From the NCBI RefSeq assembly GCF_036321535.1, contig NC_087436.1, forward strand, positions 11,966,001-12,030,000: a DNA stretch of 64,000 bases, read 5' to 3'. Every line of letters begins with the position of its first letter. Position 1 is the stretch's first letter. Shown one piece after another: positions 13,393 through 21,915 of the stretch. A program made the position numbers and the translations under genes. The notes under the pieces are model-generated. The model saw only the letters and a program-made list of their open reading frames with translations, did no database searches and was not told the origin of the DNA. Source of the DNA: Camelus dromedarius. Lineage: Eukaryota.

Positions 13393-13518
13393 TGTGATAG
13401 TTAATCTTATGTGTCAACTTGACTGGGCCACCATATACCCAGGTATTTGGTCAGATGTTATTTTGGGTGTGTCTGTGAGGGGTTTATTTTTGGATACTAA
13501 CATTTAAACCAATAGACT
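13393..13518 (+). mobile_element. MLT2-type ERV-L 5' LTR, first ~125 bp only (interrupted by L1)
   Basis: Begins tgtgatagttaatcttatgtgtcaacttgactgggcca. Homologous to the start of the LTR at 21508. Confidence 0.85.
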
Positions 13519-13519
13519 A

Positions 13520-14999
13520 GCTTGATCAAGATGGTGGAGTAGGGGACATGGGCCTCACCTCCCCCATGAACACATCAAAAGTACATTTTGTATGGAACAA
13601 TTCTCACTGAAAACCAACGGGAGACCAGTAGGGAGACTGTTGTACAAGCAAAGCTGTAAGAAAGATCCACACAGATCTGGGTAAGAGGGGAAGAGAAGCT
13701 TTATTAGGTCAGGACCTATTCCCCTGGGAGAGGACTCAGGAAGAGGGAGGTTACATGGGCGGACATCCTCCTTGAGGTGTGAGCAGTTTGAGTCACATAT
13801 TCGACACCTCAGCCCTGGGATCCAACACAGGAAAGACAGACTAACAGGAGGGCTGCGGGAAGCCTGGGCTCTGCTCATGAGGAGCGTGTGTACTGGCTGG
13901 CACCCAAGGCAGGGTGGGGAGAGTGGACTGAAAACTGCAGAGCGGCCCCCCAGGTTCTCATGCCACCCTGGTGTGTGCCCGTTCTGGTCTGGATGAGTGC
14001 TCCAGCCCCACTTCGCGTCACAGCGCCACACTGCAGTGAGGGCTGCCGTAACCAAGGCAAGGGCTTGACCATGGAATGCAGAGGTGACTCAGACATGAGG
14101 GGGCATCTGAACAGGGCAGGGGCAGCCACCACTGACACTTACACAGGGGGCACGTCAGGGGTGGTCCGAATCTCTGACAGCGGCTGGACCGCAGCCCATG
14201 CCCAACATACACCAGGAGGCCACATGGGCTCCACCTGCCCTGTGGCACATCGCCACACCAGGGCAGGGGTGGCTGAAGCTGAGGGGACAGATTGGCTGTG
14301 AAGGACAAAAGAAACTCAGACCTGTACTGGTGTCTGAGCAGGGTGGGGGCAACCACTGCTGGTGCTTACACGGGTGGCATATGAGAAGCAGCTTGGACCT
14401 CTGTCTCTGGAGGACCACTGTAGCCCATCACAAGCTGACAGCCTGCACAGTCCCAGCACTGCTACCCTCTGGGTTAGCACAGGGCGCTGAAACTGGGAGA
14501 TGGGAGAGCACACACCTGAAGAAAATTGAGCCAACTCAGGCCTGAACCTCAGGACTTCTGCTCCAGCAACTTGGGATCTGACCCCAACCCTGATAGGGTG
14601 CTGAGAGCCACAGAGCGGAGGGGGAGCCCTGGCCCACACCTGGCTTTGGCTCTAGTTCCTCCATCTCCAGCCTTGCTTCCTACCAAGGTGATAGCTGCCA
14701 GCACACCCTAGAGAAAGATGCAACCTGTGTTCGTGTCAAATCTACCTCTTCCATCAAAGCCACTGAGCACATGCAGACTGTAGAGGGATGCTCTCACACA
14801 AGGACACCCCTTCAAGACCACAATTGGTAACCGTTTCACCTAATTTTGTAGAGAAAGAAAATGTTAAGCAAAATGAGAAGACAGAGGAATTTATTCCAAT
14901 TGGAAGAACAAGAGCAAACCCATAAAAGTCTAATGAAACAGAAGTAAATAATTTACCAGATAAAGAGTTCAGAGCATTAGTAATAAGAATACTAACTGA
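13520..14999 (+). mobile_element. L1 element C: 5' UTR and start of ORF1
   Basis: caagatggtggagtagggg start and GC-rich UTR. ORF1 start MRRQRNLFQLEEQEQT..., then NNLPDKEFRALVIRILT, at ~14873-14998. Confidence 0.85.
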
Positions 15000-17885
15000 T
15001 GCCAAGACGGTGGAGTAGTAGGATGCACAGCTCACCTGATCCCACGAACACACTGAGAATTACATCTACAGACCCATTAATTTGCACAGAACACCTACTG
15101 AATTTTGACAGAATATCTTTTACTTTGAAATTCAAGAAGATTCCTCACAAAAACTGGTAGAAAGGAAAAAGAAACAGGAAATTGGTGCAGAACCCGTCCT
15201 GTGGGGAGGGAGCAGCAAAGGAGGAATAGTGCCCTCGTGCTGGGACACTCTCTCTCCGGCCGAGAGTTTACCAGGGACAGAAATGGAGCTTCTGGGGCTC
15301 AGAGGAGAAAACAACACCTGTTTGGCAGACAGAACTAAGAGAAACCAGCACAGAGGGTCCCTATGATCCCCAGCGCTAGACAAGAGCCAGTGGGGTGGGC
15401 CAGGACTGGCTGCTGGAGGTTAGTGACTAGCCTGGGCAGAGGGCTGGGGCCCACGGCACAGAGGCAGCCTCAGGGGGCTGTGGGGTAGTGCAGGCTGTAG
15501 CTGGGAGTGTCTGCAGAACAGAGCAGCCTGGGGCTCCCATGAAAAAGCACCAGTGCTGGTGCACATGGGGAGGAAGGGCACAAGGCAGCTGGGCCATAGC
15601 TGCCATCCCTGCTGGTCAGTGTAGACATGCACTTGTTGGTGTCTTCTCACCAGAAGAAGGGGGGGGGGGCTCTGTCATAGCCATTACAACCTCTGGAGCA
15701 TGGCTCCTGGGTGGAGGCAGGGCTGAAAGCTGAATTCACACCTGGCAGCCCCCCCCCCCCCCCATTCACAGGCAGGACTGGTGGAGATTTGTTTACAGCC
15801 CCAGGCAGAGGGGTCAGATTTGCTCCGCTGGTGCCTTTGTGGACCCATGCCTCTCAGATTCCGCACGGAGTTCTGGCCAACAGCAGGGGCAGGTATGGCT
15901 TTACAATGGGCATGTGTACCATACCATACCTGGAGGCGGGCCGGGGTCTGTGCTGGCCCTGTGGCGCAGCATGGATCCAGCTGTGCGACTGTACACTCAC
16001 AGCGGCAGGTCTTGGTGCCTGACATCCGTGACTCTGCACTGGTTAGCTCTGCAGGTCGAGAGCCTGGGGACACCAGAGCAGGTGGCCGACATTCCCACAG
16101 CTAAGGCAGGGACAAGGGCAGTGGCAAAAAGAGTACCTTGTAAGCCTACATAACAAGTGACAGACAGCACCACAGAGGGCACCGCCTGGTGGACGTCTCC
16201 TGTAGAGGTGCACTCAGTGGCTCTTCTCCGAGCTGAAACACTCCAACCCCACCTACCACACACCACAGCTCAGAAATGGATGTGGAAGCCTCTATTCCTA
16301 CAACGGGGGGGGGGGGGGGGGGGGGGGGCGGGCAGACCCAGCCCTGTCAGGGCTGTGACAACCACAGAACAAGGAAGAAGGCCCACTCCACAGCAAAAAG
16401 CAGGTTGGCTCTGACCAGTACAAAACCAACCACACCCCCAGTCAAAGGGATGATGGGCAACACACGTGGAAGGAAGGCATGACAGCCACCCATACTAAGA
16501 ACAGCCCTCATTACAGGACTATTAGATGCATGCAGTCTACACAAAGACACTCCCATTTTAAATAAATAAAAGAAAAAACCACAGCCCTTCAAGACCACAG
16601 TAGATAACTGATACTCCTAAATCCACAGAACCAGAGAAATATAAGTAAAGTAAAGAAGCAAAGGAACCACTCCCAGTTAAAAGAGCAGAAGTCCCCTGAA
16701 AGCATAAGCAATGAGATAGACCTCAACAGTCTATGAGAATATGACATCAAAAAGGGGGTGACAAAAACACTTCAGGAAATAAGAGAGACTTTGAACAGAA
16801 ATTCAGGATACTATAAAAAGGAAATAGAAACTATAAGGAGGAGCCAACTAAAAACAGAAAACTCAATGGCTGAGATAAGAGCTGAGCTAAAGGCAGTCAG
16901 AGCAGATCAGGTAATGCAGAGGAATGAATAAGTGATGTAGAAGACAGGATGACCAAACTCACCTAATCAGGACAGCAGACAGAAAAGCCAGTAAAAACCA
17001 ATGACAACAATATAAAGGAACTATGGGATAATATAAAGGAACCAGCCTATGGATACTAGGGGTCCCAGAAGGAGAAGGAAGAGAAAAAGGCATTGAAAAG
17101 GTATTTGAAGAAATCATGACTGAAAAATTCCCAAACTTAAAGAAGAAATATCCAAGTACAGGAAGCTCAGAGGGTCCCAAACAAGAAGAACCCAAAACAG
17201 ACCTACACTAGAACATACTATCATTAAGATGGCCAAAGTTCAAGATAAAGAAATGATTCTAAAGTCAGCAAGTGAAAAACAAAGAGTTAGTTACAAGGGA
17301 ACCCCCATAAGACTTTCAGCTGATTTCTCTACACAAACCCTGCTGGCCAGAAGGGAGTGGCAAGATACATTCAAAGTCCTGAATGAGAAAAAGCTGCAAC
17401 CTAGGATACTCTATCTGGCAAAACTATCCTTTAGAATAGAAAGAGAGAGAAAGAATTTCACAGACAAGCAAAAGCTGCAAGAATTCTGCAATACTAAACC
17501 AATCCTAAAAGAAATATTGAAAGCTCTACTCTAAATAGAAAAGAAGTAGGAAGCTATAGAAATGAGAAAACCATAACTGGAAATGTGATAACTACAATGA
17601 ATTGCAAGAGAATAAACATGAAGATGTAAAAGAGGACATCAAAATTAAAAGGTGGGAGATGGAAGCAAGAAAATACAGATTTTTTTCTCTCTCTCTTTTT
17701 TTTTTCTTTTTTCTGTTCTTTTTAGGATGTGTTTGAACCTATATGAGAATCTAAAGCAAGCAGGGTTGGTAATGGATTAACATACATGAAAAACAGGGTA
17801 ACCACAAATCAAAAACTTACAATAGAGTCACAAAAAACAAAAACAAACAAACAAAAAGAACCCAAGATAATACAAAAAAAAATTT
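15000..17885 (+). mobile_element. L1 element D: 5' UTR, degenerate ORF1 and inter-ORF spacer, no ORF2
   Basis: 5' end homologous to L1 A. ORF1 C-terminus KGTPIRLSADFSTQTLLARREWQDTFKVL...KEILKALL* ends at 17534. The spacer ends in an A-rich tract at ~17882. Confidence 0.9.
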
Positions 17886-20754
17886 ATGAGGGGAGCACCT
17901 GCATCCAGTACAAATTATGGGACTGCCCTCCTCCTCAAGACAGATCTTACTCACTGAGGACACTGAATTGGGAAACCTAAATGCAATGGAAGTAATCGGA
18001 TCCCTGGGTGATGGAGGCCAAGTGGTGGCATGCAACCACCAAAGGCCAGGTGCGTGTGGTTACTGGGGTAGACAGCAGAGTTAAAGGGATTGCAGAGATC
18101 AGTACCACAAGCAAGGACTTGGAAGATGTGAGGGTGGTGATTCCCGCCACATCCCCATTCAATTTGCCTATCTGGCCTGTGCAGAAGACCGATGGATCTT
18201 GGAGAATGACAGTGGATTATCACAAACTTAGTCAGGTGGTGACTCCAATTGCAGTTGCTGTCCCAGATGTGGTTCTACTGCTTCAGCAAATTAATACATC
18301 TCCTGGTATCTAATATGCAGATACTGAGCTGATAAATCCTTTTTTTCTTTTCATCTGTTCATAAGGACCACTAGAAGCACTTTGCTTTCAGCTGGCAAGG
18401 CCAAAACTACCAGCTCACTGTTCTAACTCTGGGATATTGTCAGCTCTCTAGCCCTGCATCATAATTTAGTTCTTAGGGATCTTGGTCCCCCTTTCCTTTC
18501 ACAAGGAATCACACTGGTCCATTACATTGATGCCATTATGTTGATTGGATCTAGTAAGCAAGAAGTAGCAACTACTCTAGACTTATTGGTAAGACCTTCG
18601 TGTGTCAGAGGTGTAGAAACAAATCTAACAAAAATTCAGGGACCTTCTACCTCAGTGAAATGTCTAGGGGTCCAGGGGTGGGGGGCATGCTGAGATATCC
18701 TTTTCAAGGTGAAGGATGAGTTGTTAGATCTGGCCCTCCTTTGACCTCAAAAGGTACAATCTCTAATGTGCCTTTTGGATTTTGGAGGCAACACTTTCCT
18801 TTCGGTGTATTACTCCTGCCCATTTAACAGGTGATCTGAAAGGTTCTGAGTGGGGCCCAGAATAAGAGAAGCCTCTGCAACAGATCCGGCTGCTGTGCGT
18901 GCCTCTGCACCACTTGGGCCACATGATCCAGCACATCCAACGGTGCCTGAAGTGTGGACAGCAGATGAGGATGCTATTTGGGGCCCTTCTAGGTGAACTG
19001 CAGCATGGGCTCTTAGGCATTGGAGCAAACCCCTGACATCTTCACAGATAATTACTCTCCTTTTGAGAAACAACTCTTGGATTGCTACTGGGCCTTAGTA
19101 GAAACTGAACACTAAGCTTGCCATGTGACCTGAACTTCCCATCATGAATTAGGTGTTATCTGACCCACCAAGCCATAAAGTTGGGTGTGCACATTAGTGC
19201 TCCATCATCCAATGGAAGTGGTTTATACATGATTGGGACTGAGCAGACCCTGAAGACATAAGCAATTTACATAAAGAAGTGGCCCAAATGCCCACGGTCC
19301 CCCTCCTGCTACTCTGTCTTCCCTCCCCTAGCCTCACCTGTGACGCCATAGGGCGCTCCCTGTGATCAGGGGACAGAGGAAGAGAAGACCGGGGTCTGGT
19401 TTACAGAAGGCGCTGCATGAGTTGCAGGCACCACCGGAAAGTGGACAGCTGCAGCACCACTGCCCGTTCCTGGGACGTCCCTGAAGGACGGTGGTGAAGG
19501 GCAGTCCTCCCACTGGGAGCTTCGAGCAGAGCACCTGGCTGCTCATTTTACTTGGAAGAAGAAATGGTTAGACATGTGATTATATACACCAATTTATGGG
19601 TTATAGCTAATGATTTATTTAGAAGGTCAGAGACTTAGAAGGAGCATAATTAGAAAATTAGTGAAGGAAATTTAGGAAGAAGTATATAGATAACCCTTTG
19701 TATGGGCAAAAAATGTGAAGATATTTGTGCCTCGTGTGAACTCTCACCAAAGGCTCACCTCAGTGGGGTAGGATTTTAATAATCAAGAGGATGGGATGAC
19801 CCATTCTGTACATACCAGTCAGCCTCCTGGCCCAACCACCCCATCCATCACCCAACATAGCGCTGTTTCTGACCAAGAAACTCACTTCACAGCAAGTGTA
19901 GGGGGCCTAAGCTGACGAGACTCCCTGGTCTCACCACGTTTCCCACCGTCCTCAAAGCAGCTGGCTTGATGGAACAGGGGAATGGCCTCTGGAAGACTCG
20001 GCCACACTGCCAGCTTGACGGCAACATCTTGCAGGCCTGGGACAACATTTTCCAGAGGGTGTTCTTTCTGAATCATCGTCTGACGTGTGGTGCTATTTCT
20101 CCCACAGCCAGAAGTCATGGATTCAGGAAACAAGGGGTGGGGACGGCAGTGACCACTCACTATTGCCTCTAGTGACCCACTAGCAAAATTCGTGCTTCCT
20201 GTTCCCATGACCTTATGCTCTGCTGGCCTAAAAGTCTCCGTTCCAGAGGGAGAAATGCTTCCACCAGGAGGCGTAATGATGATTTCATTGAACTGAAAGT
20301 TGAGACTGCCACTTGGCTATTTGGGGCTCCTCGGGCCTCTGGCTTTATAGTTAAAGAAGGCCGTCACGGCGCTGGCTGAGGTGACTGATCCTGACCACCA
20401 AGGGGAAATTGGGGGGCTCCTCCCTGTGGAGGTAAGGAAGAGCATGTCTGGAATACAAGAGGTCCCCTAGGGCATCTCTTAATGTTACCATGCCCCATGG
20501 TTGATTTAAGGTTAATGGAAAACTGTGACCCAATCCAGGCAAGACTGCTGATGGCTCAGACTCTTCAGGAATGAAGGTTTGAGTTGCCCCATTGGGTAAA
20601 TGAATATGACCCGCTGAGCGGCTTGTCAAAGGCACAGGGGATACAGAATAGATGGTAGAAAACGGCAGTTCTTCATACCGGCTACAACCATGTGAGCAGC
20701 CACAGAAACGACTGCCATTGTCATGAGTGTCTTCTCCTTATTTTATCATGAATA
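17886..20754 (+). mobile_element. ERV-L internal region: gag remnant, pol (RT/RNaseH/IN) and dUTPase, degenerate with deletions
   Basis: RT peptide [71 protein letters not shown] (YIDD-like) at ~18520. WFTEGAA (RNaseH-like) at ~19397. SDQETHFTA (integrase-like) at ~19868. dUTPase-like segment at ~20200-20500. Confidence 0.93.
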
Positions 20755-21479
20755 AAGCTCCTTTCTAATGGGAAGGAGGCCAATACCCTCAATCAAGTCT
20801 GGCTGATGGAAACATGAGGACGCAGACTGACTGTACGGAGAAGTGCGCGGACCCGGCCCTGACATTGCGAGGAGCAGCTGTGCTTGGTGGAGAGGGCCGC
20901 CACTGACGTCTCCCAGCTCCGGTGCCGGCTCCTCTCCAGCCAGCAGCTGGAGACTCTGCTGCCCTGAGCTGCTGCAAGTGCCTGTGATAGGCAAAAACCT
21001 GGGTGTCCCGAGTCTTTTGGGCCCCAGATCAAGGGTGCCTGCTGCTTGGAAGGAAAGATCCGCCAGTTGCTGGAACCCCTGGGCTTCCCATGCACCTTTG
21101 TTAATGACTTGGCTGCTCCCTGACTGAGATTGGAGACTTCTGCTCCTGTGCCAACATCTCCTGGGTGCACTTTGCCTTCAAATGGTGGAGGACAGTGCCC
21201 AGTGCCCTAGACCCACCAGTGCCTAGCACTGCCAGCCCTGCCCAGCACGGATGGCCCATTATCACCATTCAACAGCCTTCTGACCCCTGCCCTGATTGGA
21301 GGGCCGGACAGTCAAGAACTACACCCCTCTTTACCCTGCTCACCTCTGTCCCTTAGTGTCCAGTGGGGTGGCAGATGCTGCCAGCTTGAACCCCTTGGAA
21401 AAAGACAGAAGACTATCTTCAGCTGAGAAATGTTCCCTAAATATCCATTAGAGCGCTAGCTGTTCTGGGGGAAAAAAAA
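20755..21479 (+). pseudogene. PADI6: Processed (intronless) PADI6 3' fragment: frameshifted C-terminal coding sequence, 3' UTR and short A-tail
   Basis: Stitched frames read LLSNGKEANTLNQV..ADGNMRTQTDCTEKC...[76 protein letters not shown]. This matches the recalled PADI6 C-terminus ([23 protein letters not shown]...[24 protein letters not shown]). TAG at 21208-21210 follows a 7-bp tandem duplication agtgccc. ATTAGA at 21447 and A8 at 21472-21479. Confidence 0.9.
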
Positions 21480-21507
21480 GTGTTGGCCAAGTTGACAAAA
21501 GTCTCCT

Positions 21508-21915
21508 TGTGATGGTTAATTTTGGGTCACCTTGACCGGGCCCAGGGTGCCTAGATATTTGATCAAACATTATTCCAGGGGTTTCCATGAAGGTGTTTTG
21601 GATAAAATTAACATTTAAATTGGCAGACTGAGTAAGGAGAGGGCCCTCCCTAATGTAACTGGGCTTCACCCAATCAGTTGAAGCCTCGAATAGAACAAAA
21701 GGCCGACCCTCCCTGGAGGAGAGGAAGATTCTCCCTGCCTGAGTGCCTTTGAACTGGGACACTGGCTTCTTTCCTGCCTTTGGATACAAGCTGAAATACT
21801 GGCTCTCCCTGAGTCTCTAGCAGGCCGACTCACCCCGTAGATCTTGGAATTTGTCAGACTGCATAATCAGGTATATACGCTCCTGTTGGTTCTGTTTCTC
21901 TGCCTGACAAATACA
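21508..21915 (+). mobile_element. MLT2-type ERV-L 3' LTR
   Basis: tgtgatggttaatttt...cccaatcagttgaagcctcgaatagaacaaaagg...ctgttggttctgtttctc...aataca. Preceded by the ERV-L internal terminal motif gccaagttgacaa at ~21486. Confidence 0.9.

What the first reader, a model, noticed from the sequence alone, without database searches (positions are those of the whole stretch)
20755..21507. PADI6 cDNA captured inside an ERV-L provirus, at the env-equivalent position
Seen: a ~720-bp intronless PADI-family C-terminal fragment with its 3' UTR and short A-tail lies in sense between the ERV-L dUTPase region and the motif gccaagttgacaa preceding the 3' LTR. I find no TSD (left ...tcatgaata|aagctc, right aaaaaaaa|gtgttggcc). 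The motif GDFCSCAN, where active PADs have GEVHCGTN, together with FAFKWW points to PADI6. Established: PADI6 is an abundant maternal oocyte/early-embryo mRNA (cytoplasmic lattices), and ERV-L/MLT2 elements are transcribed around zygotic genome activation; retroviruses can capture host mRNA by co-packaging and RT template switching. Inference: from recall of the ERV-L consensus, several hundred bp of its 3' internal region are missing at this point. That fits ERV-L-mediated transduction of a maternal-effect gene rather than a simple L1 retrocopy, and it may define an ERV-L subfamily carrying PADI6.
Basis: partly seen in the sequence, partly recalled or inferred. Interest (0 to 1): 0.85.

Follow-up and report, generated by a model that had tools for sequence, protein, structure and literature searches.

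The report
PADI6 processed pseudogene inside ERV-L remnant
An old, broken, intron-free copy of the egg-cell gene PADI6 sits in the tail of an ancient ERV-L retrovirus remnant in a camelid genome, and it is more likely an ordinary LINE-1-made pseudogene plus a deletion than a gene captured by the virus.

Summary
Window 20756-21479 is a 5'-truncated, fully spliced, decayed copy of PADI6: the last 15 nt of one exon, three further exons, the 3'UTR and A8. The parent gene lies at C14:59.63 Mb.

The copy sits in sense inside an ERV-L remnant. It starts 28 nt after the pol-dUTPase stop and ends 28 nt before the 3' LTR. It replaces about 300 bp of ERV-L non-coding sequence that 16 of 16 other copies keep. 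There is no target-site duplication.

- It is a single copy in this 2.3-Gb genome, so there is no PADI6-carrying ERV-L subfamily.
- It ends at PADI6's own polyadenylation site with an A-run and is truncated only at the 5' end. Both are LINE-1 hallmarks.
- Neither junction shows clear microhomology.
- The same provirus has another clean deletion of about 0.65-0.75 kb and has lost its 5' half, so loss of sequence here is not special.

My odds: LINE-1 retrocopy with target or later deletion about 0.68; ERV-L reverse-transcriptase capture about 0.18; other repair capture about 0.1. Comparing the orthologous locus in other laurasiatherians would decide it, but I could not run that here. The event is old (3'UTR K2P 0.30). 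Interest is low to moderate.

The parts
17961..18086 (+). Upstream ERV-L internal piece. It is followed directly by sequence that lies about 640-745 bp further on in 7 of 7 other copies, so this marks a clean internal deletion in this provirus.
   Evidence: paired matches of query 462-587 and 586 onwards in C27, C37 x2, C18, C2, C3, C36
18087..20726 (+). ERV-L pol remnant running from reverse transcriptase through integrase to the C-terminal dUTPase. It is full of stops and frameshifts. It ends at the stop codon that aligns with the stop in L010 and L017.
   Evidence: RVT_1 E=8.1e-5 at 18427-18693. The window is collinear at 66-75% identity with many genome copies. In those copies, dUTPase PF00692 scores 24.3 bits in L027 and E=0.0068 in L010, and rve scores E=0.026 in L010. 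Stop position.
20727..20754 (+). First 28 nt of the ERV-L 3' non-coding region. Position 20754 is the left breakpoint.
   Evidence: the alignments to L007, L008, L010, L017, L038, L039, L041, L044 and L047 all end at 20754
20755..21210 (+). Coding remnant of the PADI6 retrocopy. Position 20755 is ambiguous. 20756-20770 is the end of exon N-3, 20771-20840 is exon N-2, 20841-20971 is exon N-1, and 20972-21210 is the coding part of the last exon. It carries five 1-nt gaps, 15-nt and 14-nt deletions, and a 7-nt duplication before the stop.
   Evidence: Pfam PAD; PDB search
21211..21471 (+). PADI6 3'UTR remnant. Homology to the parent runs to 21467. A decayed poly(A)-signal-like hexamer lies about 15-20 nt upstream of the end.
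   Evidence: K2P 0.298 +/- 0.044 over 234 sites
21472..21479 (+). A8 run at the retrocopy's 3' end. It is a poly(A)-tail remnant and may partly overlap a purine-rich ERV-L stretch.
21480..21507 (+). Last 28 nt of the ERV-L internal region, the stretch that in other copies carries the purine tract just before the LTR. Position 21480 is the right breakpoint.
21508..21915 (+). ERV-L (MLT2-like) 3' LTR. Homology to other copies is traced to 21869. The end near 21915 is inferred from the terminal CA.
   Evidence: the name MLT2 is recalled, not tested

Best explanation
A mature, polyadenylated PADI6 mRNA from the germ line was reverse-transcribed by LINE-1 machinery (target-primed reverse transcription). 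It was inserted, 5'-truncated, into the AT-rich 3' non-coding region of an ERV-L provirus that was already in place, about 30 nt upstream of the 3' LTR. The roughly 300 bp of ERV-L sequence and the upstream target-site copy were lost in one of two ways: at the insertion itself (an L1 insertion-mediated deletion), or through a later deletion that also removed the 5' end of the retrocopy. The copy has decayed neutrally since then and has no function.

Shown: source gene, processing, junction positions, size of the missing ERV-L segment, single copy, other deletions in the same provirus.

Inferred: the enzyme (LINE-1) and the order of events.
For: - The copy is fully spliced across three exon junctions.
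- Its 3' end is complete. Homology to the parent stops at the expected cleavage site and is followed by A8.
- Truncation is at the 5' end only. Tan et al. 2016 (PMC5131818, passages read) call a retrocopy L1-mediated on a poly(A) tail or a 5'-truncation bias. None of their 15 LTR-mediated Drosophila retrocopies had a tail.
- The left junction is inside exon N-3, with 0-1 nt shared with ERV-L.
- It is a single copy. The 961-nt junction-spanning query matched only itself.
- Deletions are common at this locus. 7 of 7 other copies carry about 640-745 bp that this provirus lacks at 18086. Everything 5' of 17961 is gone as well.
- A second, independent PADI6 fragment on C3 and a PADI4 retrocopy on C2 show that PADI mRNAs were ordinary retroposition substrates.
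- L1 insertions with target deletion and no TSD are documented. 26 human-specific L1 insertion-mediated deletions are cited in PMC1920257 (passages read).
Against: - No TSD abuts the junctions.
- About 300 bp of target sequence is missing, and 16 of 16 other copies keep it.
- At the right junction other ERV-L copies read a purine-rich ...AAGGAGAT directly before GTGT. That is not a good TTTT/A cleavage site unless 2-4 substitutions occurred later.
- The insert is in sense orientation and lies wholly between the pol stop and the stretch before the LTR, as a transducing element would need.
- The retrocopy's age (about 0.15 per lineage) is close to that of the ERV-L family (pairwise identity 66-75%). 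Insertion during ERV-L activity therefore cannot be excluded.
Confidence: 0.68

Rival explanations
1. ERV-L-mediated retroposition, that is, capture before integration. A PADI6 mRNA was packaged into an ERV-L particle. During minus-strand synthesis the ERV-L reverse transcriptase copied the 3' LTR and the last ~28 nt of the internal region, then jumped into the mRNA's poly(A) tail. It copied about 715 nt and jumped back to ERV-L RNA 28 nt downstream of the pol stop. The chimeric DNA then integrated.
For: - The same element flanks the insert on both sides, collinear and in sense orientation.
- The element is discontinuous by about 300 bp, well above the >20 bp criterion of PMC5131818.
- There is no TSD.
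- The right junction is not at a good L1 cleavage site.
- pol and the stretch just before the LTR are retained.
- Ages are compatible.
- PADI6 is described as oocyte-specific (PMC10982689, abstract start in the search listing). That ERV-L is transcribed around zygotic genome activation is recalled, not checked.
Against: - The 3' end is complete and ends in an A-run at PADI6's own poly(A) site. This fails the 'no L1 hallmark' filter of PMC5131818, where 15 of 15 Drosophila cases lacked a tail and were more truncated at the 3' end than at the 5' end.
- There is no clear microsimilarity at the left junction (0-1 nt) and only A-richness at the right junction.
- There is a single copy and no secondary retroposition.
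- Other clean deletions in the same provirus make the discontinuity weak evidence.
- Such cases are rare in mammals: 3 in human and 8 in mouse, out of 518 and 208 LTR-flanked retrocopies.
Confidence: 0.18
2. A PADI6 cDNA, or a fragment of an existing retrocopy, was captured at a double-strand break in the ERV-L by end joining. This would be endonuclease-independent, repair-type insertion with loss of about 300 bp of target.
For: There is no TSD, target sequence is deleted, the right junction is not at a consensus cleavage site, and the junctions are blunt or nearly blunt. In 18 of 21 endonuclease-independent human L1 insertions, target DNA was deleted (PMC1920257, passages read).
Against: Those insertions are defined by 3' truncation and absence of a poly(A) tail. 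Here the 3' end is complete and carries an A-run. The class is also rare: 21 loci in the human genome.
Confidence: 0.1

Closest known systems
LINE-1-mediated processed pseudogenes, including L1 insertion-mediated deletions
   Same: The copy is spliced, truncated only at the 5' end, ends at its native 3' end with an A-run, derives from a germ-line-expressed gene, and has decayed neutrally.
   Different: There is no TSD, about 300 bp of the target is lost, and the right junction is not at a clear TTTT/A site.
LTR-retrotransposon-mediated retrocopies (Tan et al. 2016, PMC5131818; for example FAM8A1 in HERV-K and an IAPEy case in mouse)
   Same: The retrocopy sits in sense between two collinear parts of one LTR element and replaces part of its internal region. 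There is no TSD.
   Different: It has a complete 3' end with an A-run. Junction microsimilarity is not evident. The replaced part is non-coding only. No second copy exists. The carrier would be a class III ERV-L, which I did not see named among their cases in the passages read; their supplementary table was not opened.
Oncogene capture by acutely transforming retroviruses (read-through or deletion model; recalled, with Swain and Coffin 1992 seen only in a reference list)
   Same: Spliced host exons sit between viral sequences ahead of the 3' LTR.
   Different: The left junction is inside an exon, not in an intron or at a splice site. There is no open reading frame, no sign of selection and no amplification.

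Membership tests
PADI6-derived sequence | Best match is PADI6 rather than PADI1-4, including non-coding sequence | tested here: met
   75% identity over 510 nt including the 3'UTR to the PADI6-position gene, against 62-65% over coding sequence only for the four paralogues. PDB search: PADI6 49.9 bits, PADI2 44.2 bits. The parent is 100% identical to a named PADI6.
Processed (RNA-derived) copy | Exon-exon junctions present without introns | tested here: met
   Three junctions are present. Parental introns of about 1.0, 1.5 and 1.1 kb are absent.
L1-mediated retrocopy (TPRT) | Poly(A) tail at the native 3' end | tested here: met
   A8 lies 4 nt after the last base that matches the parent, about 15-20 nt downstream of a decayed signal-like hexamer.
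L1-mediated retrocopy (TPRT) | Truncation at the 5' end only | tested here: met
   The copy starts 15 nt before the end of exon N-3, and the 3' end is complete.
L1-mediated retrocopy (TPRT) | Target-site duplication | tested here: not met
   No repeat abuts the junctions. The longest shared word is 7 nt, is not adjacent, and was reached in 120 of 2000 shuffles.
L1-mediated retrocopy (TPRT) | TTTT/A-like cleavage site at the 3' junction | tested here: inconclusive
   Other copies read TTTAAGGAGAT or AAAAAGAT before GTGT. This fits only if 2-4 substitutions occurred later.
LTR-mediated retrocopy (criteria of PMC5131818) | Same LTR element on both sides, discontinuous by more than 20 bp | tested here: met
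   10 of 13 collinear copies have 281-318 bp between the breakpoints. The segment is absent from the whole window.
LTR-mediated retrocopy (criteria of PMC5131818) | No L1 hallmark (poly(A) run, TSD, 5'-truncation bias) | tested here: not met
   An A8 run and 5'-only truncation are present. Only the TSD is absent.
LTR-mediated retrocopy (criteria of PMC5131818) | Microsimilarity at the switch points | tested here: inconclusive
   The left junction shares 0-1 nt. At the right junction an A-run meets a purine-rich ERV-L stretch. The age of the locus blurs short matches.
LTR-mediated retrocopy (criteria of PMC5131818) | Retrocopy and flanking element present or absent together in outgroup species | not testable with these tools
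ERV-L (class III ERV) | pol with a C-terminal dUTPase, no env, LTR shared with many genome copies | tested here: met
   dUTPase scores over the cut-off in the collinear copy L027, and rve plus dUTPase hits occur in L010. Only about 360 nt separate the pol stop from the LTR in other copies. PMC4724089 (passages read) states that nearly all HERVL have a dUTPase at the pol C terminus. Pfam found no dUTPase in the window's own frames.

The most novel reading that the evidence does not exclude
An ERV-L particle in the germ line or early embryo of an early laurasiatherian or stem cetartiodactyl co-packaged maternal PADI6 mRNA. Through two non-homologous template switches it produced a transducing ERV-L in which host cDNA replaced exactly the dispensable 3' non-coding region. 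This would be a fossil of class III ERV-mediated capture of a maternal-effect transcript.
Probability: 0.18. Interest if true: 0.5.

Novelty: new member of a known kind. Interest (0 to 1): 0.22.

Why it matters
As read here, this is one more decayed processed pseudogene. Its value is as a worked example of how a LINE-1 retrocopy plus a deletion inside a provirus can look like retroviral transduction. It may also serve as an old insertion marker for camelid or cetartiodactyl phylogeny.

If the capture reading were right, it would add a class III ERV-L case to the handful of LTR-mediated retrocopies known in mammals. It would also link ERV-L particle formation to cells rich in PADI6 mRNA. One genome-alignment look-up would settle which reading is correct.

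Tried and rejected
1. Intron remnant at the left junction. BLAST aligned 20758-20770 to the parent's intron polypyrimidine tract, and for a while I read this as a transduction signature. One search showed that the same bases match the end of exon N-3 better (14 of 15 against 10 of 13). Rejected.

2. Dating by an LTR pair. Self-BLAST and the repeat finder found no 5' LTR. The LTR fragment at 13394-13523 is only 66% identical to the 3' LTR (K2P 0.478 +/- 0.092, 125 sites). That is less alike than unrelated genome copies (about 69-84%), so it is not the cognate LTR and gives no date.

3. The C2 locus as a second chimera. A PAD-like retrocopy lies about 700 bp upstream of an MLT2-like LTR. It has the active-type GEVHC motif, its own AATAAA signal and a best match to the PADI4-position gene. 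Unrelated.

4. Pfam on the window's own ERV-L frames found no dUTPase or integrase. I used collinear copies instead.

5. Protein tree to date the retrocopy. The ML position is inside Laurasiatheria (support 90/77) and outside crown Cetartiodactyla (88/86) on a 0.63 branch. AU tests rejected none of three alternatives: with Cetartiodactyla p=0.40, with Camelus p=0.084, outside Laurasiatheria p=0.31.

6. Sequencing runs.

7. The search of earlier findings gave nothing for this place or for relatives, and only unrelated giant-virus PAD notes.

8. Paper searches for poly(A) tracts at retroviral transduction junctions found nothing usable.

Full report
**What is there**

Window 20755-21507 contains a real PAD-domain remnant. 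Pfam PF03068 scores E=2.4e-11 on the read-through frame and E=2.8e-11 on the ORF 20968-21123.

The window is G000:C1:11966001-12030000 of a 2.3-Gb assembly. A search of that genome with the PAD profile shows one cluster of five PADI genes on C14 at 59.62-59.88 Mb, four on one strand and one on the other. It also shows this window, a multi-exon set of hits on C21 and an intronless hit on C2.

The stretch matches the gene at the end of the cluster far better than the four paralogues. Identity is 75% over 510 nt, including about 240 nt of 3'UTR, against 62-65% over coding sequence only. That gene's last exon scores 148.6 bits against human PADI6 (PDB 8ql0) and 106 against PADI4. It is 100% identical to a database PADI6 of Camelus dromedarius, so the genome is a camelid. 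The spliced parental exons translate exactly to that protein's C-terminus, which also reads GDFCSCAN...FAFKWW.

**Anatomy of the copy**

The copy is made of these pieces:
- 20756-20770 matches the last 15 nt of exon N-3 (14 of 15).
- 20771-20840 is exon N-2.
- 20841-20971 is exon N-1.
- 20972-21210 is the coding part of the last exon.
- 21211-21467 is the 3'UTR.

Three introns of about 1.0, 1.5 and 1.1 kb are absent. Homology to the parent stops where the parent continues with unrelated genomic sequence. Four bases later comes A8 (21472-21479). A decayed signal-like hexamer lies about 15-20 nt upstream in both copy and parent.

The copy is dead. Against the parental coding sequence it has five 1-nt gaps, 15-nt and 14-nt deletions and a 7-nt duplication, and 89 of 146 readable codons are unchanged.

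I first read the 13 bases before exon N-2 as intron sequence, because BLAST had aligned them to the intron's pyrimidine tract. One search showed they are the end of exon N-3. That reading, which would have favoured transduction, is withdrawn.

**The surroundings**

Upstream lies a decayed retroviral pol. There is a weak RVT_1 hit at 18427-18693. The region is collinear at 66-75% identity with many genome copies (355 first-look candidates, 40 scored). In those copies Pfam finds dUTPase (L027, 24.3 bits, over the cut-off; L010, E=0.0068) and integrase (L010, E=0.026) in the expected order. Pfam found neither domain in the window's own frames. A dUTPase at the pol C-terminus is the mark of HERV-L (PMC4724089, passages read).

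The pol frame ends ...KRGLQL followed by a stop at the same aligned codon in the window, L010 and L017. L005 is frameshifted there. This stop lies 28 nt before the left breakpoint.

Homology to other copies ends at 20754. BLAST picks it up again at 21486 in most copies, and two copies (L027, L010) carry it back to about 21480. The LTR starts at 21508 and is traced by homology to 21869.

Of 13 copies with both flanks collinear, 10 have 281-318 bp between the two points. The other three have 194, 251 and about 640 bp. All 16 copies that reach the left breakpoint continue into this non-coding segment, and it is found nowhere in the window.

So about 300 bp of ERV-L 3' non-coding sequence is replaced by 725 bp of PADI6 cDNA, in sense orientation. 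No TSD abuts the junctions.

**Is there a family of such chimeras?**

No. The 961-nt query across both junctions matched only itself in the genome.

The fragment on C3 covers part of the PADI6 last exon and 3'UTR. It has no ERV-L flanks and is closer to the parent (72%) than to this copy (67%).

The C2 copy lies about 700 bp from an unrelated LTR. It carries the active-type GEVHC motif and its own AATAAA, and it matches the PADI4-position gene best.

**Age**

K2P between the copy and the parent is 0.298 +/- 0.044 in the 3'UTR (234 sites) and 0.195 +/- 0.035 in the last-exon coding part (217 sites). With a generic mammalian rate of about 2.2e-9 per site per year (recalled), the UTR value gives roughly 70 million years.

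Site patterns are mixed:
- The copy shares S in GDFCSCAN with all 8 cetartiodactyls examined.
- It keeps K in GPQIKG where all 8 cetartiodactyls have N.
- It carries several laurasiatherian states.

The tree puts the copy inside Laurasiatheria (90/77) and outside crown Cetartiodactyla (88/86) on a long branch. AU tests reject none of three alternatives (p=0.40, 0.084, 0.31).

The ERV-L family is of similar or slightly greater age, with pairwise identity 66-75%. No cognate 5' LTR exists to date this provirus. The order of the two events therefore cannot be read from divergence.

**Mechanism**

Both the LINE-1 and the ERV-L routes predict a spliced copy.

For LINE-1:
- The copy has its native 3' end with an A-run and is truncated only at the 5' end. 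Tan et al. 2016 call a retrocopy L1-mediated on either feature. All 15 of their LTR-mediated Drosophila copies lacked a tail and were more truncated at the 3' end (PMC5131818, passages read).
- The left junction falls inside an exon and shares 0-1 nt with ERV-L.
- There is only one copy.
- This provirus has another clean deletion. 7 of 7 other copies hold about 640-745 bp that are missing at 18086, and everything 5' of 17961 is gone. A missing 300 bp and a missing upstream TSD are therefore not surprising at this locus. They may have been lost at insertion (L1 insertion-mediated deletion, cited in PMC1920257) or later.

For capture:
- The orientation is sense.
- There is no TSD.
- The replaced segment lies wholly between the pol stop and the stretch before the LTR.
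- The right junction is not at an obvious TTTT/A site in other copies. At about 15% divergence per lineage, 2-4 later substitutions could hide such a site.

In mammals LTR-mediated retrocopies are rare: 3 of 518 LTR-flanked retrocopies in human and 8 of 208 in mouse passed their filters. Weighing these points, I put LINE-1 with deletion at 0.68, ERV-L capture at 0.18 and break-repair capture at 0.10.

**Other data**

Sixteen DNA-type runs hold all sampled words of the junction-spanning kilobase, 15 labelled organism A and 1 labelled organism B. Five of these rows, from four studies, are not marked as possible sources. The locus is therefore not an assembly artefact. Nothing could be laid on it.

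**Verdict**

The attractive transduction story is not excluded but is the less likely reading, and the subfamily idea fails. This is a new instance of a known kind, of low to moderate interest. A cheap comparative test is still outstanding.

Noticed in passing
window 13394-13523: The first ~130 bp of an MLT2-like LTR (begins TGTGAT...), cut off by the 5' end of an L1. It is only 66% identical to the 3' LTR at 21508, so it is probably not the cognate 5' LTR of the provirus.
   Followed up: partly
window 13524-17885: An L1 5' portion in + orientation: a 5'UTR-like start, then ORF1 domains (Tnp_22_trimer, Transposase_22 and dsRBD, about 16900-17534). It lacks most of ORF2 and has no 3' end. Its last 380 bp are 80-87% identical to many genome copies, so it is younger than the ERV-L. 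It abuts the ERV-L remnant at about 17900-17960.
   Followed up: partly
window about 18086: A clean internal deletion of about 640-745 bp in the ERV-L, relative to 7 of 7 other copies, with no insert at the site.
   Followed up: yes
window 21495-21507: The stretch just before the 3' LTR reads AAAAGTCTCC. Several other copies read a G-rich purine tract followed by GGAC here (L007, L010, L027; L005 and L017 are similar). The difference is more than expected from point decay and resembles a tiny inversion. Unexplained.
   Followed up: no
G000:C21:5314748-5319598: Multi-exon PAD-profile hits (profile positions 2-31, 67-113, 128-153 and 160-207) on a chromosome other than the PADI cluster. This may be a partial PADI duplicate or pseudogene.
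   Followed up: no
L032 2100-3040 (G000:C2:36291600-36292540): A processed PADI4-derived pseudogene with the active-type GEVHC motif, an internal A-rich insertion (about 2290-2320), a local duplication near the catalytic motif and its own AATAAA signal.
   Followed up: partly
L003 1411-1671 (G000:C3:57008283-57008543): A second, independent fragment of the PADI6 last exon and 3'UTR, 72% identical to the parent, with no ERV-L nearby.
   Followed up: partly
PADI6 protein alignment: All 8 cetartiodactyl PADI6 sequences read GDFCSCAN and GP(Q/R)(I/V)(N/S)G. Most other mammals read GDFCACAN and GPQIKG. The parent camel gene has several further lineage-specific changes (T in GTNLG, V in EEKV, D in FIDDF).
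   Followed up: no
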